Sequence record: NC_010105.1
DNA: 64,000 nt
Strand: one strand, 5' to 3'
From: Escherichia phage JS98
Part shown: positions 7,398-38,438 of the stretch, in pieces
How the letters are laid out: each line of letters begins with the position of its first letter
How positions within the stretch are numbered: the stretch's first letter is position 1
The notes under the pieces: model-generated
Told to the model about the DNA's origin: nothing
Seen by the model: the letters and a program-made list of their open reading frames with translations, nothing else
The model's database searches: none
Position numbers and translations under genes: made by a program

Positions 7398-7436
7398 AAT
7401 AATTTCCTCAGTTTAAAATTTATAATCCGTGGGACC

Positions 7437-7466
7437 ATTATACTCTGGTCCCAAGAGTTTGTAAAC
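7437..7466 (-). promoter_or_regulatory. sigma70-type early promoter (GTTTACA -35, 17-bp spacer, TATAAT -10) with inverted repeat GGGACC/GGTCCC flanking the -10
   Basis: Read on minus strand: GTTTACAAACTCTTGGGACCAGAGTATAATGGTCCC upstream of 7068-7397. Confidence 0.55.
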
Positions 7467-7666
7467 TATTTTTGTGCTAGTGCGCCTTTCCAACCTTCAT
7501 ACATCGCGGCGGCTGATATTAATATTGCTCCTGCGCATTTTGAATATTTGTTATTCCAAAACCAGTTTAGAAAAACTTCGTCATCAATACCTTGAGCTAC
7601 CATATTTTCAAAGAACTGACGACGGGCTTCAGCAATTCGTTGTGATAATTTAGATTCAGGATTCAT
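7466..7666 (-). CDS. hypothetical protein (66 aa)
   Basis: Intact ORF. Confidence 0.4.
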   Translation of the reverse strand: MNPESKLSQRIAEARRQFFENMVAQGIDDEVFLNWFWNNKYSKCAGAILISAAAMYEGWKGALAQK

Positions 7667-32826: not shown

Positions 32827-33054
32827 TTATTTTCCTAACGAAATACGAGTAGGTTTTTTGCCAAAATATTCTTCATAAGAACCATCTAAACGACCTGCTT
32901 TAGACCGACAATACGAATCGTACTTTTTGTAATAAGTCATCTCAGTATTATAACGCGGGTGTCTATCGGCCATAATAATACTTAACGGCCAACCTTTGGC
33001 ATAATCACGAAGACCGTTTATTTTACGAATGTATCTTTTCTTTAATTTTAGCAT
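32827..33054 (-). CDS. hypothetical basic protein (75 aa)
   Basis: Intact ORF. Confidence 0.4.
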   Translation of the reverse strand: MLKLKKRYIRKINGLRDYAKGWPLSIIMADRHPRYNTEMTYYKKYDSYCRSKAGRLDGSYEEYFGKKPTRISLGK

Positions 33055-33272
33055 GAGCTCGGGTACCAGATTTTACCATCGGGACGAGCAACGAAGGTGC
33101 GACCAGCTTCTTCGCCGTAACAAGAGCTATTCAGCCAATCTTCAAGACGAACTTCACCATCGTAATCGTCTAACTCAACACCAAAACTTTGAGCAGAAGC
33201 CATATCTTTTACTTTCTTATACAGGGCAGCCAGTTCAAGAGCAGCTTTTTCTAATTCATCAATATCAGTCAT
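33048..33272 (-). CDS. WSSS-C tail family paralog 1 (74 aa), ends WYPSSC
   Basis: Acidic helical protein; internal WLNSSC and terminal WYPSSC. Confidence 0.5.
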   Translation of the reverse strand: MTDIDELEKAALELAALYKKVKDMASAQSFGVELDDYDGEVRLEDWLNSSCYGEEAGRTFVARPDGKIWYPSSC

Positions 33273-33282
33273 TTTTTATTCC

Positions 33283-33492
33283 TTAGCAAGACATAGAGGA
33301 GCTAAACCAGAAACCTTCACCTTCTGGGATACCGTAGTCATCACGGACCCATTCGTAATCATCATATTCCGGACTAGAAGCCGGAATATATTCTTCGCCA
33401 CCAGCGTGGAAGTGCTGACCTGTTTCGTCAGCCACGGACTGGCCTTTACGTACTAATTCACGGATTTGTTTTTCGATTTCATCAATAGTCAT
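33283..33492 (-). CDS. WSSS-C tail family paralog 2 (69 aa), ends WFSSSMSC
   Basis: Shared C-terminal motif. Confidence 0.5.
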   Translation of the reverse strand: MTIDEIEKQIRELVRKGQSVADETGQHFHAGGEEYIPASSPEYDDYEWVRDDYGIPEGEGFWFSSSMSC

Positions 33493-33501
33493 TTTATTAC
33501 C

Positions 33502-33699
33502 TTAGCATTCGTAAGAGGATGATACCCAAGAGGTACCACTAATAGTAATACAACCGTTATAAAGCGTGATATGTCGTTCTAAGTCACGAACACCATCGAT
33601 ATAGATATCAGCTTCTTCGCGTTCTTCTTTACAAATCTGGATAACGTTTTCAATAGCTGCGGCGGCAGTACGGATTGCACAATCTAATTCACGAGACAT
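33502..33699 (-). CDS. WSSS-C tail family paralog 3 (65 aa), ends WVSSSYEC
   Basis: Shared C-terminal motif. Confidence 0.5.
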   Translation of the reverse strand: MSRELDCAIRTAAAAIENVIQICKEEREEADIYIDGVRDLERHITLYNGCITISGTSWVSSSYEC

Positions 33700-33708
33700 A
33701 ATATTTCC

Positions 33709-33990
33709 TTAACATTCAGAAGAAGAGGACACCCAACCACCATTTTCCAGGTCAGTTGTATAGTCATGAGTATTAACAATAGCCCATTCAGGATGACCAT
33801 CTTCTTCCCAATGGGCAAGGTCAGCTTTCAAGGCACCAGGAGAATAATAGTCACCGCCCATACCGCGAGCAGGGTATATATTAAAATGAGTCTCATATTT
33901 GTCTGCAATTTCCTCGGCACGACGAATAGCTTCATGAATTTCTTTTACTGCGGCCAGAAGCTCTGGGTTGTTATGATTATCATTCATCAT
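33709..33990 (-). CDS. WSSS-C tail family paralog 4 (93 aa), ends GGWVSSSSEC
   Basis: Shared C-terminal motif. Confidence 0.5.
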   Translation of the reverse strand: MMNDNHNNPELLAAVKEIHEAIRRAEEIADKYETHFNIYPARGMGGDYYSPGALKADLAHWEEDGHPEWAIVNTHDYTTDLENGGWVSSSSEC

Positions 33991-33999
33991 AGCTTTTCC

Positions 34000-34290
34000 T
34001 TAGCACATTGCTGAAGAGGAGACCCAGGCACCAACTGTAACGACACCGTTTTCAACTTCACCGCCATTGTTTTCAATTTCATCTTTAAACCACTGGGAGC
34101 ATTCATAACCAACAGGGTAGTATGTACGTCCTGAGCCATAATCACCTGTTCCGAATTGAATACCATACTTATCGGCAATAGCTTCACATTTGTGTTCGAT
34201 GATATCCACTTTATTCAGAAGAGCATAGATAGCCTTTTCTGCAGATTTCTCGTCGTTGTATTCAGGGATTTCAATTTCAATTTTATTCAT
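34000..34290 (-). CDS. WSSS-C tail family paralog 5 (96 aa), ends GAWVSSSAMC
   Basis: Shared C-terminal motif plus internal YECSQWF. Confidence 0.5.
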   Translation of the reverse strand: MNKIEIEIPEYNDEKSAEKAIYALLNKVDIIEHKCEAIADKYGIQFGTGDYGSGRTYYPVGYECSQWFKDEIENNGGEVENGVVTVGAWVSSSAMC

Positions 34291-34640
34291 GATTTACATT
34301 CCTTAATAAAGGTTTCAAGGTCATTACGGTTGGTTTGTTTTACATACTCATTATAATTAGCCATCTCTAAAGCATATCTCTTACGGATGGGAGCATTCAA
34401 AGCATTTGTATGGCAAATATCATACACGAGAGGGATAAAATAAGCCACGACGGCCGGAGCGATTATCATATAGAAACCCATCTCAATAGGCATGACTCCT
34501 TCGATTGCAGCCATAACTGTGGTCATTACCAGACCAACCAGACCGCCGAGCATACCTGTGACAATTCCCGTGAATAAGGAAATAGCAATATCATATTCAG
34601 CCAATTGATAAACATGCGATGAAAGACTAGGCCGTTCCAT
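34287..34640 (-). CDS. membrane protein (about 117 aa, 2-3 TM helices)
   Basis: Hydrophobic segments GIVTGMLGGLVGLVMTTVMAAI and FYMIIAPAVVAYFIPLV. Confidence 0.45.
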   Translation of the reverse strand: MERPSLSSHVYQLAEYDIAISLFTGIVTGMLGGLVGLVMTTVMAAIEGVMPIEMGFYMIIAPAVVAYFIPLVYDICHTNALNAPIRKRYALEMANYNEYVKQTNRNDLETFIKECKS

Positions 34641-35169
34641 TTTGAACCTCTTTAGCGTATTCACGGCATTCAGCAATAAAACGATTAAGCTTCCGTTGTT
34701 GTTTACGACTTTCTAATGTGTACTCAGCAGTTAAGATACCAAGCTCGGCTTTATCATAATTTTTAATATCGGTGTAAGATGGCCGACGGTCGACCATTCC
34801 AAATACATCACCATTTTCTAAAGCCACATAGCATACTAAATGGTAATCATCGTCTGCCATATTAAGAAGCACACAATCATTGCTCTCATTTAAAGAATAT
34901 ACTGAATAACGTAGTCCAGCGAATTCCACTCGTTGAATAGCCAGATTTACGTCAATAATTTCCAAAGCATCTTCAAAAGAAAGGTCTTCAGCTAAAGCAA
35001 AAATAAAAGGTAATTTGGTAGTATCGCCACGGCTAGATGTTCTGCTTAAGAAATCGTTTGAATAGCCTAGGTCTTGGCGAATTCTATAAAGAACTGAATT
35101 GGTTTCATGGGAAAGACCACTATTTTTAAACCAATCAATATTTGATATAAGGTTATCATATAAACTCAT
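34627..35169 (-). CDS. hypothetical protein (180 aa)
   Basis: Intact ORF; first gene after terminator hairpin. Confidence 0.45.
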   Translation of the reverse strand: MSLYDNLISNIDWFKNSGLSHETNSVLYRIRQDLGYSNDFLSRTSSRGDTTKLPFIFALAEDLSFEDALEIIDVNLAIQRVEFAGLRYSVYSLNESNDCVLLNMADDDYHLVCYVALENGDVFGMVDRRPSYTDIKNYDKAELGILTAEYTLESRKQQRKLNRFIAECREYAKEVQNGTA

Positions 35170-35193
35170 AATATTCTCCTCTCCTCCAAATAG

Positions 35194-35210
35194 GGAGACC
35201 GAAGTCTCCC
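35194..35210 (-). terminator. terminator-like hairpin GGGAGAC-TTCG-GTCTCCC (weak U-run)
   Basis: Perfect 7-bp stem directly after the stop of 35218-35811. Confidence 0.4.
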
Positions 35211-35217
35211 GGTAACA

Positions 35218-35811
35218 TTACTTAAGTGAATTAATGTAGTCTTCGATATCGGCTGAAGTCGTGTCCATTCCAACTTGTGGGCCTTTAAACGTTTCTACAC
35301 GCAGCAGAGTATCTTCAATATCAATCTTAGTCAGTGCAGCTATTTCAACCACATCATCGGCAGTAGCAATACCAAGGGCGGCCATATTACGAGTTTCACG
35401 GATGTACTCGAGCTTAACAGCCAGTTCCTGACGAGAGTCATCAAGTTCCTTGACCTTCAGTTTAATTTCATTACGCATTTCGATATAATCGTCAGCTTTC
35501 TTACGAAGTTGAGTGGCTGTACGACGATAAAGGAGGCCGAGTTTAGCATGTACCTGAACATCGGCGCCTTCGGCAATCAGTTTACGAATTTCGCGTTCTT
35601 TAGAAGCAGCCAGTTGGTCTTTTTCATTTGCCAATGCACGAATGCGTTTTTCTTCATTCACAGACTTAACATGAGCAGTCTGGAGTTCGGTAATTTTATC
35701 AATCAGGGTAGAAGCAGCTTTAGTATACTGGTCTTCGATTGACAGGTTCTGAGTCATTGCGGTACCCAGTTTAGAACGGATGAACTCAACAATTTTCTTT
35801 AAAGTATTCAT
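35218..35811 (-). CDS. coiled-coil protein (about 197 aa); possible PspA/IM30-like
   Basis: Start at [14 protein letters not shown] (ATG 35809-35811); long heptad-like helices; PspA likeness is impressionistic. Confidence 0.45.
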
Positions 35812-35854
35812 AGTATTTCCTTCAGTCGGTTGGTATTTTGTAATCCATGAGGAC

Positions 35855-35884
35855 ATTATACCCTGTCCTCTGAGGGTTGTAAAC
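35855..35884 (-). promoter_or_regulatory. early promoter (GTTTACA -35, 17-bp spacer, TATAAT -10) with inverted repeat GAGGAC/GTCCTC around the -10
   Basis: Minus-strand TGTTTACAACCCTCAGAGGACAGGGTATAATGTCCTCATGG. Confidence 0.55.
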
Positions 35885-35887
35885 ATT

Positions 35888-36286
35888 TTATTTCATTTTA
35901 GCGAGGCAGATTTCATTGGCTTCCCATTGAGCTTGCTTAATAATAGCTTTGGATACAGGAACCTTTTGACCATAAGTTTTTGACGTTGAGAGAACAATAT
36001 ATTTGTTTGCCTCATTATGCCAACCTAGTGATTTTTCGCCATGACTACCTTTAACCACAGCTGACACCTCAACAGAGCAACCACCATCAGAAATCTTGGT
36101 TTCTACAATCCATTCATTTCTCTCGGCAGCTTCAATTTCCGATCTCCTTTTTTCTTCATACATGGTGGCCCAATCGGTTTTTGCCAAGTTGAAAGCAAGA
36201 GCTTTCTCTAATTCTTTGGCAGCTTTTTGTTGTTCAGGTGTTAATGAATTATATAACTCTTGCATTTCTTTATCTTCGATATTCAT
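35888..36286 (-). CDS. hypothetical protein (132 aa)
   Basis: Intact ORF. Confidence 0.4.
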
Positions 36287-36343
36287 TATGTTCTCCTCAA
36301 ATTACGGGCTCATAATATCTCAATCATGGGCCCATGTAAACAA

Positions 36344-36607
36344 TTATTTCATATTATTGAAATAATCTTCTGCATTAAAATCGTTATCATGGTAAACTTT
36401 GGTAGACGTTTTGGCGTAGCCTTCAGCTGAGAACATATTAATCACAACTTTAATTGTATACCACTGTCCATCTTCGTTACCCATTACTGCATAGGTTTCA
36501 TACACTGGGTGTTCAGGACCGATAACCTTAATATCGTTAACAGTAGCACCAAATTCTTCAGGAACGCATTTCATAAAGAAATTAAACAATTCACCATAAT
36601 TATCCAT
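36344..36607 (-). CDS. hypothetical protein (about 87 aa)
   Basis: Start at MDNYGELF (ATG 36605-36607) after GAAGGAGAG RBS. Confidence 0.4.
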   Translation of the reverse strand: MDNYGELFNFFMKCVPEEFGATVNDIKVIGPEHPVYETYAVMGNEDGQWYTIKVVINMFSAEGYAKTSTKVYHDNDFNAEDYFNNMK

Positions 36608-36633
36608 TTTACTCTCCTTCACACTGTTGTTTT

Positions 36634-36671
36634 GATAGGTCTATAGTATCATGTTTAAAGGAGGTGTAAAC
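36634..36671 (-). promoter_or_regulatory. conserved early-promoter cassette (PeSL-like)
   Basis: Minus-strand GTTTACACCTCCTTTAAACATGATACTATAGACCTATCAAAACAACAG. Confidence 0.5.
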
Positions 36672-36706
36672 AACTTTGTGAAATTATTTTTAGTTTAAAC
36701 CCCCTA

Positions 36707-36728
36707 AAAGGAGACCAAAGTCTCCTTT
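36707..36728 (-). terminator. rho-independent terminator (AAAGGAGAC-CAAA-GTCTCCTTT palindrome)
   Basis: Hairpin immediately after stop of 36731-37348, followed by TTTAGGGGG on minus strand. Confidence 0.5.
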
Positions 36729-36730
36729 CA

Positions 36731-37348
36731 TTATTTACGGGTCTTTTCGAACTGTGCTGCGTCACCTGCAAGGCGGCGGGCTTGACGAAGTTTGTTATCA
36801 ATTTCTTCGTGCATAGGCTGGGTATACTTAAGGCCTTCAACCGTCAGGTAAAGACGATAGAGGTCCGGGGTATCTAGGTTGTTAATGTGCTGCCCATTAC
36901 GAAGGGCGTTGAATTCTCGAACGAGTTGTTTAGTTTCGGATTCGATTTCAGAAACCAAAGAAGCCAGCTGGTTATATTTTTTAACAATAGTGCTGGTGTC
37001 GAACTTGATTTTAGGTTTAGGAGCTTCTTTTACAGGCTCTGCTTTAGGTGTAGGTTTCGGCGCTGCAACTTTGGTCTGAGCCGCGGGTTTAGAAACAGGA
37101 GCTTTAGCTGGTTTAGCAGGCTTAGTAGAGCCACCGGCTACGATATCTTTAAAAGCTTTGGAAGCTTTGTAATATTCTTTCTGGCTACTAGTATCAAAAC
37201 CATACATATCATAAACGTTTTTAAAGAACTCGGTAGTGGTTTTAGTCCCGGAAATTTTATCATAAGCAGCTTGCCACATATCTTTAGTCATGCGCACGCC
37301 GGCTTCATTCAGAACGCTTTCGTTCAAAAATTCATTGTAAGTTTTCAT
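36731..37348 (-). CDS. internal-protein-like protein (205 aa) with Ala/Pro/Lys-rich linker
   Basis: MKTYNEFLNES capsid-targeting leader; KPAKPAKAPVSKPAAQTK low-complexity segment. Confidence 0.55.
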   Translation of the reverse strand: MKTYNEFLNESVLNEAGVRMTKDMWQAAYDKISGTKTTTEFFKNVYDMYGFDTSSQKEYYKASKAFKDIVAGGSTKPAKPAKAPVSKPAAQTKVAAPKPTPKAEPVKEAPKPKIKFDTSTIVKKYNQLASLVSEIESETKQLVREFNALRNGQHINNLDTPDLYRLYLTVEGLKYTQPMHEEIDNKLRQARRLAGDAAQFEKTRK

Positions 37349-37376
37349 TATTGTTTCCTGTGTTAATTAACTTATC

Positions 37377-37384
37377 TATTTATA
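37377..37384 (-). promoter_or_regulatory. late promoter TATAAATA
   Basis: Minus-strand TATAAATAG about 30 nt upstream of the 36731-37348 ATG. Confidence 0.55.
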
Positions 37385-37385
37385 C

Positions 37386-37412
37386 AAAAAGGCCCAACCT
37401 TTCGGAAGGGCC
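37386..37412 (-). terminator. rho-independent terminator (GGCCC...GGGCC stem followed by T-run)
   Basis: Minus-strand GGCCCTTCCGAAAGGTTGGGCCTTTTTGTATA right after stop of 37418-37972. Confidence 0.6.
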
Positions 37413-37417
37413 GTAAA

Positions 37418-37972
37418 TCAGTTCTTGTAGAACCGGAACGGGTTCACGTGGAAGGCCAACATAGCTTTAGGGATTTTACGAGACAAAAGACTCTTAAGCT
37501 TCCAGCCACAGTACACGCGAAGGTAAAATGTGATTCCGCCGACCTTAAGATAAGGAACTGAAGCAAATACACCCCAGGCGTCATCATTCCACATCCACAA
37601 CCAACCATGGTGAGCTTTATCAGGAGAACCTGATTCTACGTCAGGATTACCACGATAATGGAATTCCGAGCTACAATCACGGCCTAGTTTATGATAAGCA
37701 AAGTTATAAGCTTTATTTCGCCATAGCCAAGCTACTCTCTGGAGATAAACACCACCAGGCATTTTCCTGATTTTAGCCCAACGTTTAATATGACCTTTAT
37801 CGCCGTCAATTGGATTATCGTATGTCATCATCCAATCAAAACCGTATGGCAATTTACCAGTCTTTTTATTATGAAAAGGAACCACAAAAGGCGCAAGGAT
37901 AACGGCTAGAACCATAGAGATAAAATCTAGTGGGACCAACAGAATCCAACTCAAATATTTTAAAAGTTTCAT
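37418..37972 (-). CDS. membrane-anchored Trp-rich protein (184 aa; N-terminal TM helix)
   Basis: N-terminal LKYLSWILLVPLDFISMVLAVILAPFVV; bracketed by two copies of the same promoter/terminator repeat. Confidence 0.5.
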   Translation of the reverse strand: MKLLKYLSWILLVPLDFISMVLAVILAPFVVPFHNKKTGKLPYGFDWMMTYDNPIDGDKGHIKRWAKIRKMPGGVYLQRVAWLWRNKAYNFAYHKLGRDCSSEFHYRGNPDVESGSPDKAHHGWLWMWNDDAWGVFASVPYLKVGGITFYLRVYCGWKLKSLLSRKIPKAMLAFHVNPFRFYKN

Positions 37973-37998
37973 ATTATTTCCTAAGTTAGTTTACTGTA

Positions 37999-38006
37999 TA
38001 TTTATA
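37999..38006 (-). promoter_or_regulatory. late promoter TATAAATA
   Basis: Minus-strand TATAAATATACAGTAAACTAACTTAGGAAATAATATG upstream of 37418-37972. Confidence 0.55.
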
Positions 38007-38205: not shown

Positions 38206-38281
38206 TGGTCGAGACAGTAGGGATCGAACCTACGACCTACGGTTTAGAAGACCGTTGCTCTTCCTTCTGAGCTATGCCTCG
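38206..38281 (-). tRNA. tRNA-Arg (anticodon UCU)
   Basis: Hand-folded cloverleaf: acceptor CGAGGCA/TGTCTCG, D-arm GCTC..GAGC, anticodon loop CTTCTAA, T-arm GTAGG-TTCGATC-CCTAC, encoded CCA. Confidence 0.7.
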
Positions 38282-38285
38282 TATT

Positions 38286-38360
38286 TGGCGGACATGCATG
38301 GATTCGAACCATGGACCAATTGATTAACAGTCAACTGCTCTACCGCTGAGCTACACATCC
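38286..38360 (-). tRNA. tRNA-Asn (anticodon GUU)
   Basis: Hand-folded: acceptor GGATGTG/CATGTCC (two G-U pairs), D-arm GCTC..GAGC, anticodon loop CTGTTAA, T-arm CATGG-TTCGAAT-CCATG, encoded CCA. Confidence 0.65.
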
Positions 38361-38364
38361 AAAT

Positions 38365-38438
38365 TGGTGGCCCTGGGTGGAATCGAACCACCATCCAGCG
38401 ATTATGAGTCGCTCGCTTGACCGTCCAGCTACAGGGCC
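38365..38438 (-). tRNA. tRNA with CAU anticodon (Ile-lysidine type or Met)
   Basis: Hand-folded: acceptor GGCCCTG/CAGGGCC, anticodon stem AGCGA/TCGCT with loop CTCATAA, T-arm GGTGG-TTCGATT-CCACC, encoded CCA; short D-stem. Confidence 0.6.

What the first reader, a model, noticed from the sequence alone, without database searches (positions are those of the whole stretch)
35218..35811. PspA/IM30-like coiled-coil protein with its own promoter and terminator
A roughly 197-aa protein made almost entirely of long amphipathic helices is transcribed as a monocistronic unit: promoter with GAGGAC/GTCCTC palindrome at 35849-35884, terminator hairpin at 35194-35210. The composition resembles membrane-remodelling PspA/Vipp1-type proteins, which a phage could use to stabilise the host envelope before lysis; the assignment is by eye only.
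Basis: inference. Interest (0 to 1): 0.4.

Follow-up and report, generated by a model that had tools for sequence, protein, structure and literature searches.

The report
Phage T4 e.6-type PspA homolog
This early gene of a T4-like coliphage is the counterpart of T4's uncharacterised gene e.6 and encodes a very diverged relative of the bacterial membrane-repair protein PspA/Vipp1 (ESCRT-III superfamily), so the phage probably brings its own inner-membrane stabiliser; this has been predicted once in the literature and never tested.

Summary
The ORF is real: window 35811..35218 on the minus strand, 197 aa, about 81% helical in the model. The window is a Dhakavirus, a T4-like coliphage, and the gene is the ortholog of T4 e.6, a member of phrog_1203.

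- Profile-profile comparison with PspA/Vipp1 gives 95.6% probability (E 1e-8) and is collinear end to end. Reversed and shuffled controls score P >= 0.01.
- A family HMM searched against all PDB sequences ranks Vipp1 first (E 8e-5).
- The eight best Foldseek hits in the PDB are all Vipp1.
- Two distant family members pass Pfam's own PspA_IM30 threshold. The window protein itself does not.

The promoter is a T4-type early promoter. Its palindrome is conserved through covariation and matches a known PeSL (promoter-early stem-loop) cassette.

The hairpin after the gene is present in all 44 related loci examined. Its U-tail is weak, and the next gene has no promoter of its own, so "monocistronic" is not supported.

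Function is inferred only: binding to the inner membrane and maintenance of proton-motive force (PMF) while host stress responses are shut off.

Gendre et al. 2022 already proposed PspA homology for phrog_1203. I rate this a new member of a known kind, of moderate interest.

The parts
35218..35811 (-). Coding sequence of 197 aa plus stop. It is the Dhakavirus ortholog of T4 gene e.6 (phrog_1203), a diverged PspA/IM30/ESCRT-III superfamily protein.
   Evidence: - ORF and sequence.
- IME08 annotates the same gene as e.6.
- 73.6% identity to the T2/T4-type proteins; T4 e.6 = NP_049742.1.
- phrog_1203, E 2e-83.
- PspA homology.
35767..35805 (-). Residues 3-15: N-terminal amphipathic helix (alpha0). 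It aligns with the membrane-binding helix AHa of PspA/Vipp1.
   Evidence: - Helix in the AF2 model, but with low pLDDT.
- Hydrophobic moment of residues 2-19 is 0.46, against 0.42 for PspA and 0.57 for Vipp1; 6% of shuffles reach it.
- K5, F10, I11 and K14 are invariant or nearly so.
- hhalign aligns M1 to M1.
- AHa (residues 2-19) is required for PspA membrane binding (PMC4556811).
35572..35739 (-). Residues 25-80: helix alpha1, the first arm of the ESCRT-III-type helical hairpin.
   Evidence: - AF2 model, pLDDT 83-97.
- Aligned in register with PspA/Vipp1 alpha1.
35377..35556 (-). Residues 86-145: helix alpha2/3, the second arm of the hairpin. It starts with the conserved motif [10 protein letters not shown], which aligns with PspA/Vipp1 LAR(A/E)AL..K.
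   Evidence: - AF2 model.
- Motif conservation within the family.
- PspA A87, R88, A90, L91 and K94 align with e.6 A89, K90, A/G92, L93 and R96.
35296..35361 (-). Residues 151-172: helices alpha4, ending at the conserved V-E-T-F motif, which aligns with PspA F-E-(S/R)-(F/M).
   Evidence: - AF2 model, lower confidence.
- Alignment of the motifs.
35224..35256 (-). Residues 186-196: C-terminal helix alpha5. Its motif D(V/I)E(D/E)Y(L/I)xSLK aligns with the PspA/Vipp1 motif V(E/D)DELAxLKA.
   Evidence: - AF2 model.
- PspA L210, A211, L213 and K214 align with e.6 L193, A194, L196 and K197.
35818..35823 (-). Shine-Dalgarno GAAGGA, 6 nt before the ATG. It contains no GGAG.
   Evidence: - Sequence.
- (A/G)AAGGAAAT is conserved upstream of e.6 in relatives.
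35849..35884 (-). PeSL (promoter-early stem-loop) cassette. It contains a T4-type early promoter, G-TTTACA (35883-35878), 17 nt, TATAAT (35860-35855). A 7-bp inverted repeat, GAGGACA (35870-35864) and TGTCCTC (35855-35849), encloses the -10 hexamer.
   Evidence: - Promoter scan, 11 of 12.
- RNA fold -12.1 kcal/mol, z = -2.0.
- The inverted repeat is rare in shuffles, and at least 7 covarying versions exist in relatives.
- 2 of 8 strong early promoters in the window have such a repeat.
- Matches the published PeSL description (PMC2839356, PMC4122927).
35193..35210 (-). Intercistronic hairpin GGGAGAC-UUCG-GUCUCCC, 7 nt after the stop codon, followed by UAUUUGG. It is an attenuator or 3'-end stabiliser rather than a clear intrinsic terminator.
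   Evidence: - Fold -13.4 kcal/mol, z = -2.37.
- Present in 44 of 44 related loci with many different stems.
- Not called by the terminator scan.
35169..35189 (-). SD region and start codon of the next gene (GGAGGAGAGGAGAATATTATG). It holds three GGAG motifs, and GGAGAATATTA resembles the RegB cleavage consensus GGAGRAYARAA (T4 endoribonuclease RegB). This region belongs to the transcription unit, not to the protein.
   Evidence: - Sequence.
- RegB consensus from PMC3014915.
- Cleavage here is inferred, not shown.

Best explanation
The ORF is the Dhakavirus ortholog of T4 gene e.6. It encodes a compact (197 aa), highly diverged, phage-specific branch of the PspA/IM30(Vipp1)/ESCRT-III superfamily.

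Expression: it is transcribed immediately after infection by host sigma-70 RNA polymerase from a T4-type early promoter embedded in a PeSL cassette. A conserved tetraloop hairpin after the stop codon attenuates transcription or protects the 3' end of the message.

Proposed mechanism (inferred):
- The protein docks on the cytoplasmic face of the inner membrane through its N-terminal amphipathic helix, as PspA and Vipp1 do.
- It self-assembles through the alpha1-alpha2/3 hairpin and the alpha5 contact into ESCRT-III-type carpets, rings or rods.
- These seal or stabilise damaged membrane, preserving proton-motive force after DNA injection, during superinfection and until the holin fires.

Why the phage would carry its own copy: T4-type phages shut off host transcription, so the infected cell cannot induce its own sigma-54/PspF-dependent psp operon.

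Shown: homology, predicted fold, the promoter and hairpin, and early expression and protein detection of the T4 ortholog.

Inferred: membrane binding, polymerisation, PMF protection and the benefit to the phage.

My confidence is about 0.9 that it is a PspA/IM30 superfamily homolog and about 0.45 that membrane and PMF maintenance is its role.
For: **Identity**
- Dhakavirus context at 92-96% nucleotide identity.
- The gene is annotated e.6 in IME08, and T4 e.6 is 73.6% identical.

**Homology to PspA/Vipp1**
- hhalign of A2 (59 e.6-family sequences) against A3 (36 PspA/Vipp1 sequences): 95.6% probability, E 1.1e-8, 195 columns from M1 to the C-terminal LK.
- Controls: reversed PspA scores 20.3, reversed e.6 scores 21.5, and the heptad-block shuffles reach at most 23.8, against 61.8 for the real pair.
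- hmmsearch of A2 against all PDB sequences: four of the top seven hits, which are Vipp1 apart from one chain deposited as PspA, have E 8e-5 to 5e-4, with residues 1-146 aligned to 1-147.
- The eight best Foldseek PDB hits are all Vipp1 (E 7e-3 to 2.5e-2, probability 0.94-1.0), followed by CdvB2 ESCRT-III among the next hits.
- In the viral structure library (BFVD), after the family's own members come a Snf7-family protein and an annotated phage PspA/IM30 protein.
- Family members P0193 (39.0 bits) and P0189 (35.1 bits) exceed the Pfam PF04012 gathering score of 33.9. P0189 lies on a 156-kb phage contig.
- At PspA columns conserved in at least 80% of sequences, 49% of e.6-family residues are of the same class, against 19 +/- 4% for random column pairing.

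**Predicted architecture**
- The model has alpha0, an alpha1/alpha2-3 hairpin, alpha4 and alpha5.
- alpha0 is as amphipathic as the PspA membrane-binding helix AHa, which is required for PspA membrane binding (PMC4556811).

**Expression**
- Early promoter.
- T4 e.6 is classed as 'early RNA, middle protein' (PMC9697503 supplement).

**Independent prior prediction**
- phrog_1203 was assigned to PspA by HHpred (PMC9409062).
Against: **Weak points in the homology evidence**
- The window protein itself has no Pfam PspA_IM30 hit, even at E 10. NCBIfam gives nothing either.
- Pairwise identity to PspA is only about 11%, and BLASTP finds nothing.
- No Foldseek hit reaches E 1e-3. Hit RMSDs are large (19-48 A) and TM-scores are 0.26-0.49.
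- Model confidence is below 50 for alpha0 and for residues 165-184.
- The A-E-D-P junction motif, including the conserved P25 helix breaker, and W71, A75 and A78 of PspA are not conserved.

**Weak points in the proposed function**
- No conserved partner gene, such as a PspB/C or LiaI analog, accompanies it.
- No experiment on e.6 was found.
- From memory, the T4 region between e and the tRNA genes is dispensable in the laboratory.
Confidence: 0.6

Rival explanations
1. Dedicated anti-abortive-infection factor. The phage PspA homolog exists specifically to neutralise host or prophage defence effectors that kill the infected cell by permeabilising the inner membrane (Rex-type, AbiZ-type or transmembrane effectors). 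General membrane housekeeping during infection would not be its purpose.
For: - This is the hypothesis published for phrog_1203 (PMC9409062).
- Early expression fits a counter-defence gene.
- The gene sits in a hyperplastic region of accessory genes flanked by PeSL cassettes.
- It shares all the homology evidence of the main explanation.
Against: - No experimental support exists.
- The gene is conserved in over 1100 phage genomes across many host genera. That is broader than expected for a counter to one particular defence system.
- It is not separable from the main explanation with sequence data.
Confidence: 0.2
2. Mimic or antagonist of the host Psp system. The protein would copy PspA's regulatory side, binding PspF or PspB/C or co-polymerising with host PspA, in order to silence or hijack the host envelope-stress response. 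It would not itself act on the membrane.
For: - PspA has a second, regulatory function carried by its helix AHb, residues 25-42 (PMC4556811).
- e.6 aligns over this segment, and hydrophobic positions 36 and 40 are conserved.
Against: - Identity to E. coli PspA is about 11%, and the P25/AEDP junction next to AHb is lost.
- The family occurs in phages of hosts as different as Aeromonas, Klebsiella, Erwinia and Salmonella.
- From established knowledge, T4-type phages shut off host transcription, which makes repression of a host operon redundant.
- Conservation is highest in alpha0, the hairpin tip and alpha5, the effector and polymerisation parts.
Confidence: 0.07
3. Unrelated coiled-coil protein. 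The resemblance to PspA would be a composition and heptad artefact, and the protein would be a scaffold, chaperone or structural component. Some database records call it 'host specificity protein' or 'tail completion protein'.
For: - Coiled coils are prone to false profile matches.
- The single-sequence Pfam search gives only scattered coiled-coil noise.
- Some records carry structural labels.
Against: - Reversed and heptad-block-shuffled controls, which keep composition and periodicity, lose the signal: score at most 23.8 against 61.8.
- The PDB contains thousands of coiled coils, yet Vipp1 ranks first in the hmmsearch, aligned in register from residue 1.
- Two family members pass the curated Pfam threshold.
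- The motif matches at the hairpin tip and the C-terminus are specific.
- An early promoter and the early timing of the T4 ortholog are unlike virion genes.
- No tail or host-range family matched in Pfam or PHROGs.
Confidence: 0.07

Closest known systems
T4 gene e.6 product (NP_049742.1 / P39224) and phrog_1203, including Kuttervirus SeF3a Gp_125
   Same: - Orthologous: 73.6% identity, the same 197-aa length, and the same position between the tRNA cluster and gene e.
- Matches the phrog_1203 profile over its full length.
- The family was proposed to be PspA-like by HHpred in PMC9409062.
   Different: - Nothing essential differs.
- The flanking genes differ between genera.
- T4 itself lacks the inverted repeat around the -10 hexamer.
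E. coli PspA (phage shock protein A; Pfam PF04012)
   Same: - Collinear helix order alpha0 to alpha5.
- Amphipathic N-terminal helix.
- Hairpin-tip motif A-(R/K)-x-(A/G)-L-x-x-(K/R).
- C-terminal L-A-x-L-K motif.
   Different: - About 11% identity, 25 residues shorter, and no Pfam hit for the window protein.
- The A-E-D-P junction, W71, A75 and A78 are not conserved.
- There is no pspF, pspBC or sigma-54 context. It is driven by a constitutive phage early promoter instead of stress induction.
Vipp1/IM30 of cyanobacteria (Synechocystis sll0617; PDB 7O3W, 6ZVR, 8QFV)
   Same: - Best sequence-profile hit in the PDB, with residues 1-146 aligned to 1-147.
- Best Foldseek hits.
   Different: - Lacks the Vipp1-specific C-terminal extension (alpha6).
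- TM-score only 0.26-0.49, with large RMSD.
- No thylakoid context.
ESCRT-III proper (Snf7/CHMP, archaeal CdvB)
   Same: - CdvB2, CHMP1 and Asgard ESCRT-IIIB appear among the structural hits.
- A giant-virus Snf7 protein appears in the viral library.
- PspA and Vipp1 belong to this superfamily (PMC8281802, listed).
   Different: - Similarity is at fold level only. No sequence-level match was obtained.
- No Vps4-type ATPase or MIM motif (Vps4-binding motif) was looked for or seen.
PeSL (promoter-early stem-loop) cassettes of T4-type phages (Arbiol et al. 2010; Comeau et al. 2014)
   Same: - Upstream stop codon, then TTTACW-N17-TAYWAT promoter with a stem-loop overlapping the -10 hexamer, then SD and start codon.
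- Located in a hyperplastic region.
- Recurs elsewhere in the window.
   Different: - The stems here are not the GGGG...CCCC type described for RB49/phi1.
- Terminator activity of this copy was not measured.

Membership tests
PspA/IM30 family (Pfam PF04012) within the ESCRT-III superfamily | The protein scores at or above the curated Pfam gathering threshold (33.9 bits) for PspA_IM30. | tested here: not met
   - The window protein has no PF04012 hit even at E 10.
- Five of 59 family members hit PF04012.
- Two of them pass the threshold: P0193 at 39.0 bits and P0189 at 35.1 bits.
- Membership of the window protein therefore rests on transitive and profile evidence.
PspA/IM30 family (Pfam PF04012) within the ESCRT-III superfamily | Significant full-length, collinear profile-level homology to bona fide PspA/Vipp1. 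| tested here: met
   - hhalign gives 95.6% probability, E 1.1e-8, 195 columns.
- Controls reach at most P 0.01.
- hmmsearch against PDB sequences ranks Vipp1 first at E 8.3e-5.
PspA/IM30 family (Pfam PF04012) within the ESCRT-III superfamily | ESCRT-III fold: a long alpha1/alpha2-3 hairpin followed by alpha4 and alpha5. | tested here: met
   - AF2 helices at 25-80, 86-145, 151-172 and 186-196.
- The Foldseek top hits are Vipp1, followed by CdvB2 among the next hits.
PspA/IM30 family (Pfam PF04012) within the ESCRT-III superfamily | N-terminal amphipathic helix alpha0 (AHa, residues 2-19) that binds membrane. | tested here: inconclusive
   - A helix is predicted at 3-15, but with pLDDT below 50.
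- Its hydrophobic moment is 0.46, comparable to PspA (0.42) and Vipp1 (0.57), yet 6% of shuffles reach it.
- The segment is strongly conserved.
- Membrane binding itself cannot be tested here.
PspA/IM30 family (Pfam PF04012) within the ESCRT-III superfamily | Conserved A-E-D-P junction, with the P25 helix breaker, between alpha0 and alpha1. | tested here: not met
   - The aligned e.6 positions 22-25 are N-x-S-V/I. The proline class is present in 12% of the family.
- A coil is still predicted at residues 16-24.
PspA/IM30 family (Pfam PF04012) within the ESCRT-III superfamily | Homo-oligomerisation into rings, rods or carpets, with membrane remodelling or PMF protection. | not testable with these tools
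   This needs purified protein, electron microscopy, liposome assays and infection physiology.
PspA/IM30 family (Pfam PF04012) within the ESCRT-III superfamily | Genomic association with Psp or Lia partners (pspF, pspBC, liaI and similar). This is typical of the family but not universal. | tested here: not met
   - Neighbours are phage genes of unknown function and are not conserved between genera.
- The gene stands alone.
T4 e.6 / phrog_1203 | Full-length match to the family profile, and orthologous position between the tRNA cluster and gene e in T4-type genomes. | tested here: met
   - phrog_1203 at E 2.2e-83, residues 1-197 against profile positions 1-199 of 200.
- The IME08 and T4 annotations agree.
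- tRNA genes lie 2.4 kb upstream.
PeSL regulatory cassette | [quoted passage not shown] It sits between the upstream stop codon and the downstream SD and start codon. | tested here: met
   - Sequence and promoter scan.
- The 7-bp inverted repeat encloses the -10 hexamer and has covarying versions in relatives.
- The definition comes from PMC2839356 and PMC4122927.
- Promoter and terminator activity of this copy were not measured.
Rho-independent (intrinsic) terminator | A GC-rich hairpin immediately followed by a U-tract. | tested here: inconclusive
   - The hairpin criterion is met: -13.4 kcal/mol, conserved in 44 of 44 loci.
- The U-tract is only UAUUU here and is absent in many relatives.
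- The scan did not call it.
- The downstream gene depends on read-through.

The most novel reading that the evidence does not exclude
The T4-type PspA homolog is an active ESCRT-III-like remodelling polymer that the phage deploys for a phage-specific task, rather than a passive copy of the host stress protein. One candidate task is resealing the inner-membrane lesion left by genome injection, including injections by superinfecting phages during lysis inhibition. Another is shaping membrane sites used for phage assembly. If so, it would be the first functional viral ESCRT-III/PspA system in bacteria, and it would explain how infected cells keep their membrane potential after host gene expression is shut off.
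Probability: 0.2. Interest if true: 0.7.

Novelty: new member of a known kind. Interest (0 to 1): 0.5.

Why it matters
T4 is the reference lytic phage, and roughly half of its genes still have no known function. Assigning e.6, which is conserved in more than a thousand sequenced T4-type and Ackermannviridae-type genomes, to the PspA/Vipp1/ESCRT-III membrane-repair superfamily gives a concrete hypothesis that can be tested cheaply.

The hypothesis bears on old questions:
- How an infected cell whose own gene expression is shut off keeps its inner membrane tight and energised after being punctured.
- How it avoids premature triggering of the holin.
- How it survives long lysis inhibition.

It may also bear on membrane-targeting abortive-infection defences.

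The promoter and hairpin architecture illustrates how PeSL-type cassettes make accessory genes semi-autonomous expression modules.

The idea is not entirely new. A 2022 genome-mining paper proposed PspA homology for the same PHROG family. The value of this analysis is independent confirmation with controls, and the explicit link to T4 e.6.

Tried and rejected
**Searches that could not see the relationship**
- Single-sequence searches failed: Pfam, phmmer against PDB sequences, BLASTP against E. coli PspA and NCBIfam.
- The 36-sequence profile A1 also missed PspA in the PDB. Only the more diverse 59-sequence profile A2 reached it.
- An exhaustive HMM search of 1.84 billion representative proteins found only 46 clusters, all e.6-like and about 200 aa long. 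It gave no direct bridge to cellular PspA at E <= 1e-3.

**Structure searches**
- The afdb50 library was not available.

**Building a PspA profile**
- The first PspA search returned only hits at least 86% identical.
- The plasmid tblastn search was swamped by one conserved plasmid-borne pspA.
- I solved this by adding Vipp1 relatives and four divergent PspA sequences.

**Other failed steps**
A1 worked.
- Literature searches for 'e.6' gave noise or nothing. The T4 genome review (PMC150520) is not held.

**Ideas considered and rejected**
- The labels 'host specificity protein' and 'tail completion protein' appear on some records. I rejected them because no supporting family match exists and the gene is expressed early.
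- A conserved partner gene next to e.6 was considered. The neighbours are not conserved.
- The palindrome could have been a protein operator. I rejected this in favour of an RNA or PeSL stem-loop, because the stem sequence varies while the pairing is kept.
Full report
**What the window is.** The 3.5 kb around the finding matches Dhakavirus genomes (T4-like coliphages MN04, CLB_P2, IME08 and others) at 92-96% nucleotide identity. One IMG/VR genome of 170,523 bp encodes an identical protein (L013). In IME08 the same gene is annotated e.6. It lies in the variable block between the tRNA cluster and gene e. T4 has the ortholog at 69312-69905, NP_049742.1, annotated 'e.6 conserved hypothetical protein'. 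The window's tRNA-Arg, tRNA-Asn and tRNA-Met genes sit 2.4 kb upstream.

**Checking the observation: the ORF.**
- The ORF runs from ATG 35811 to TAA 35220-35218 on the minus strand and encodes 197 aa.
- The mechanical ORF list extends it to 222 aa from ATG 35886, but that codon lies inside the promoter.
- All 36 aligned homologs begin at the MNTLKK methionine, which has a GAAGGA Shine-Dalgarno sequence 6 nt upstream.
- tblastn finds the protein in 1109 phage records: T4-type phages of Escherichia, Klebsiella, Shigella, Aeromonas, Enterobacter, Yersinia, Serratia and Erwinia.
- It matches phrog_1203 ('unknown function') at E 2e-83.
- An AlphaFold2 model built on the family alignment (mean pLDDT 75.6) is 81% helical, with helices at 3-15, 25-80, 86-145, 151-162, 166-172 and 186-196.
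- The description 'about 197 aa, almost all long helices' is therefore correct.

**Is it PspA/IM30-like?** Single-sequence methods see nothing: Pfam gives only scattered coiled-coil noise, phmmer against PDB sequences gives nothing, and BLASTP against E. coli PspA gives nothing. Six independent lines that can reach remote homologs agree with each other.

1. *Profile-profile comparison.*
   - I built a 59-sequence e.6-family alignment that includes the distant members found by an exhaustive HMM search.
   - I built a 36-sequence PspA/Vipp1 alignment from enterobacterial PspA, Proteus, Niallia, two gut-contig PspA proteins and cyanobacterial Vipp1.
   - hhalign gives 95.6% probability, E = P = 1.1e-8, score 62, and 195 aligned columns running collinearly from M1/M1 to the C-terminal L-x-x-L-K.
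   - Coiled coils are notorious for false positives, so I ran controls that keep composition and heptad periodicity. Reversing either alignment drops the score to 20-21 (P 0.03-0.04). The heptad-block column shuffles reach at most 23.8 (P 0.01). Reversing both alignments restores the score to 59.9.
2. *Sequence profile against solved structures.* The 59-sequence profile, searched against all 177,635 distinct PDB sequences, ranks Synechocystis Vipp1 first (E 8.3e-5). Four Vipp1 entries fall below 5e-4, and all align residues 1-146 with 1-147.
3. *Structure search.* Foldseek of the model against the PDB returns Vipp1 for the eight best hits (E 7e-3 to 2.5e-2, probability 0.94-1.0). Archaeal CdvB2 ESCRT-III filaments are prominent among the next hits.
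4. *Viral structures.* In the viral structure library, the family's own members are followed by a giant-virus Snf7 protein and an Acinetobacter phage protein annotated PspA/IM30.
5. *Transitive link through Pfam.* Five of the 59 family members hit Pfam PspA_IM30 on their own. Two exceed the curated threshold of 33.9 bits: P0193 at 39.0 bits and P0189 at 35.1 bits. P0189 matched the e.6 profile at E 5e-21. It lies on a 156-kb phage contig with UvsX-type, DnaB-type and ligase genes.
6. *Conserved positions.*
   - At the 52 PspA/Vipp1 columns conserved in at least 80% of sequences, 49% of e.6-family residues are of the same chemical class. Random column pairing gives 19 +/- 4%, with a maximum of 32% in 2000 trials.
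   - The agreements cluster in recognisable motifs. At the hairpin tip, A87-R88-x-A90-L91-x-x-K94 aligns with A89-K90-x-(A/G)92-L93-x-x-R96. L125-E126 aligns with L123-D124. F168-E169 aligns with V172-E173. At the C-terminus, L-A-x-L-K aligns in both families.

**What does not fit.**
- The window protein itself fails the Pfam threshold.
- No Foldseek hit reaches E 1e-3, and TM-scores are 0.26-0.49.
- The A-E-D-P junction, with the conserved P25 helix breaker, and W71, A75 and A78 of PspA are not kept.
- alpha0 and residues 165-184 are modelled with low confidence.

I therefore file it as a very diverged, phage-restricted branch of the PspA/IM30/ESCRT-III superfamily, not as a typical PspA. The whole family is small, with 46 clusters at 50% identity among 1.84 billion representatives, all about 200 aa long.

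**Prior art.**
- Gendre et al. 2022 (PMC9409062) compared Gp_125 of Salmonella Kuttervirus SeF3a, a phrog_1203 member, with pdb70.
- They concluded it is homologous to PspA, proposed re-annotating phrog_1203 as 'phage_shock_protein_A', and hypothesised an anti-abortive-infection role through protection of PMF.
- I found no paper that connects this to T4 e.6 and no experimental work on the protein.
- T4 omics data class e.6 as 'early RNA, middle protein', so it is transcribed early and the protein is detected (PMC9697503 supplement).

**Promoter and palindrome.**
- TTTACA (35883-35878), 17 nt, TATAAT (35860-35855), preceded by G, is the T4 early-promoter form and the best match in the 4-kb scan at 11 of 12 positions.
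- The region as a whole has no excess of promoter-like sites, so position and conservation carry the argument.
- The same GTTTACA-N17-TAnnnT element lies directly after the upstream stop codon in Dhaka-, Tequatro-, Mosig-like and several Klebsiella-phage types. Karamvirus-like and other types carry a MotA-box (TGCTT) at -52 to -54 instead.
- Only 0.2-0.6% of shuffles do as well. Relatives carry at least seven different stem sequences at the same place, among them GGGAACAT/ATGTTCCC, GAGAGCA/TGCTCTC, GTGTAGGAG/CTCCTACAC, GATGGAAGCA/TGCTTCCATC and AGGCTCAT/ATGAGCCT. This is covariation. T4 itself lacks the repeat.
- In the window, 2 of 8 strong early promoters have such a repeat. The other is near 7465.
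- This matches the published PeSL (promoter-early stem-loop) cassette of T4-type phages: upstream stop codon, TTTACW-N17-TAYWAT promoter, and a stem-loop most often between the boxes or overlapping the -10 hexamer. It serves as a terminator or attenuator for upstream transcription and as a recombination site for modular shuffling (PMC2839356, PMC4122927).
- The 3' arm ends about where transcription should start. The stem-loop can therefore form only in read-through RNA coming from upstream.

**Hairpin after the gene.**
- GGGAGAC-UUCG-GUCUCCC (35210-35193) folds at -13.4 kcal/mol with z = -2.4.
- In all 44 related loci (34 distinct sequences), a GC-rich hairpin of 6-11 bp lies 0-12 nt after the e.6 stop codon. 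It usually has a UUCG or GAAA tetraloop, and the stems vary widely. It is clearly selected.
- It is a poor intrinsic terminator by the usual rule. The tail here is UAUUU and was not called by the scan. In many relatives the tail is not U-rich at all and runs straight into the next gene's SD.
- The next gene (35169-34627, phrog_8788) starts 24 nt after the hairpin. No early, middle or late promoter lies between the e.6 start codon and that gene, apart from a weak MotA-like match inside e.6.
- Read-through must therefore occur, and 'monocistronic' is not supported.
- The downstream SD contains GGAG three times, and GGAGAATATTA resembles the RegB consensus GGAGRAYARAA (PMC3014915). The SD of e.6 has no GGAG.
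- An inference worth testing follows. RegB cleavage downstream of the hairpin would leave an e.6 message capped by a stable 3' hairpin, prolonging e.6 expression relative to its neighbour.

**Context.** Apart from e.6 and e.8, the neighbours are not conserved between genera, and all are PHROGs of unknown function. There is no PspB/C-like or LiaI-like partner.

**Most likely mechanism.**
- Shown: superfamily homology, predicted architecture, early promoter, and expression of the T4 ortholog.
- Inferred from what is established for PspA and Vipp1: the N-terminal amphipathic helix binds the cytoplasmic face of the inner membrane. AHa residues 2-19 are required for this in PspA (PMC4556811). The e.6 helix has a comparable hydrophobic moment and is highly conserved.
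- Also inferred: the hairpin and alpha5 mediate ESCRT-III-type polymerisation into membrane-covering assemblies that limit proton leakage.
- From established knowledge, T4-type phages shut off host transcription, so the cell cannot induce its sigma-54/PspF-dependent psp operon. An early-expressed phage copy would fill that gap.
- The periods covered would be the perforation caused by injection, superinfection and lysis inhibition, and the time before the holin fires.
- Rivals: a dedicated anti-abortive-infection role (published hypothesis; overlaps the main explanation), a mimic or antagonist of the host Psp regulators, and an unrelated coiled coil. The evidence for and against each is given in the rival entries.

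**Verdict.** The family assignment is supported with controls. The transcription-unit claim needs correcting, to a PeSL promoter plus a conserved attenuator or stabiliser hairpin rather than a closed monocistronic unit. The function remains untested. I rate it a new member of a known kind, because a family-level prediction already exists in the literature. Interest is moderate at 0.5, because it concerns a conserved gene of the best-studied lytic phage and can be tested directly.

Noticed in passing
window 33048-34290 (-): Five tandem small ORFs of 65-96 aa are paralogs of one another: 33048-33272, 33283-33492, 33502-33699, 33709-33990 and 34000-34290. They share a C-terminal motif W-(V/F)-S-S-S-x-x-C immediately before the stop codon. 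In the first ORF the motif is internal, and the protein ends ...PSSC. Four hit phrog_899 and one hits phrog_4882, all of unknown function. A conserved terminal cysteine after a serine run in a tandem array is unusual and unexplained.
   Followed up: partly
window about 7430-7470 (-): A second strong early promoter (TTTACA-17-TATAAT, -35 box at 7465) carries an 8-bp inverted repeat around its -10 hexamer: TGGGACCA gagtataa TGGTCCCA. It is another PeSL-type cassette. Six other strong early promoters in the window have repeats of at most 4 bp.
   Followed up: partly
window 37377-37384 (-), upstream of ORF 36731-37348: The only T4 late-promoter consensus (TATAAATA) found in the scanned interval 33000-38000 lies 36 nt before the 205-aa ORF (phrog_2280). 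That ORF has a proline/lysine/alanine-rich linker (PAKPAKAPVSKPAAQTKVAAPKPTPKAEPVKEAPKPK). A late gene thus sits inside an otherwise early block, and its transcripts could read into e.8 and e.6.
   Followed up: no
window 38206-38438 (-): Three tRNA genes in a row: Arg(tct), Asn(gtt) and Met(cat). This matches the tRNA set annotated in IME08 and is much smaller than the T4 cluster.
   Followed up: yes
window 37418-37972 (-): A 184-aa ORF with a hydrophobic N-terminal segment (phrog_2143, unknown function) lies between the 205-aa ORF and the tRNA genes. IME08 annotates no gene at the corresponding place.
   Followed up: no
window 34287-34676 (-): A 129-aa ORF with a long hydrophobic stretch, a predicted membrane protein, overlaps the end of the gene downstream of e.6. 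It shows weak similarity to T4 e.3 (20.7% identity, E 6e-8). It is not conserved next to e.6 in other genera.
   Followed up: partly
L022/L023, L024/L026 and T4 (L007): region upstream of e.6: Closely related Tequatrovirus-type loci differ in whether the inverted repeat around the -10 hexamer is intact. ATTAGA/TCTAAT is present in L026. It is disrupted in L024 and, by a short insertion, in T4. This suggests the stem-loop part of the cassette is gained and lost quickly.
   Followed up: partly
public annotations of e.6 homologs: Several GenBank and UniRef records name this protein 'host specificity protein', and one names it 'tail completion protein'. Nothing in the analyses here supports those names. 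They look like propagated mis-annotations.
   Followed up: partly
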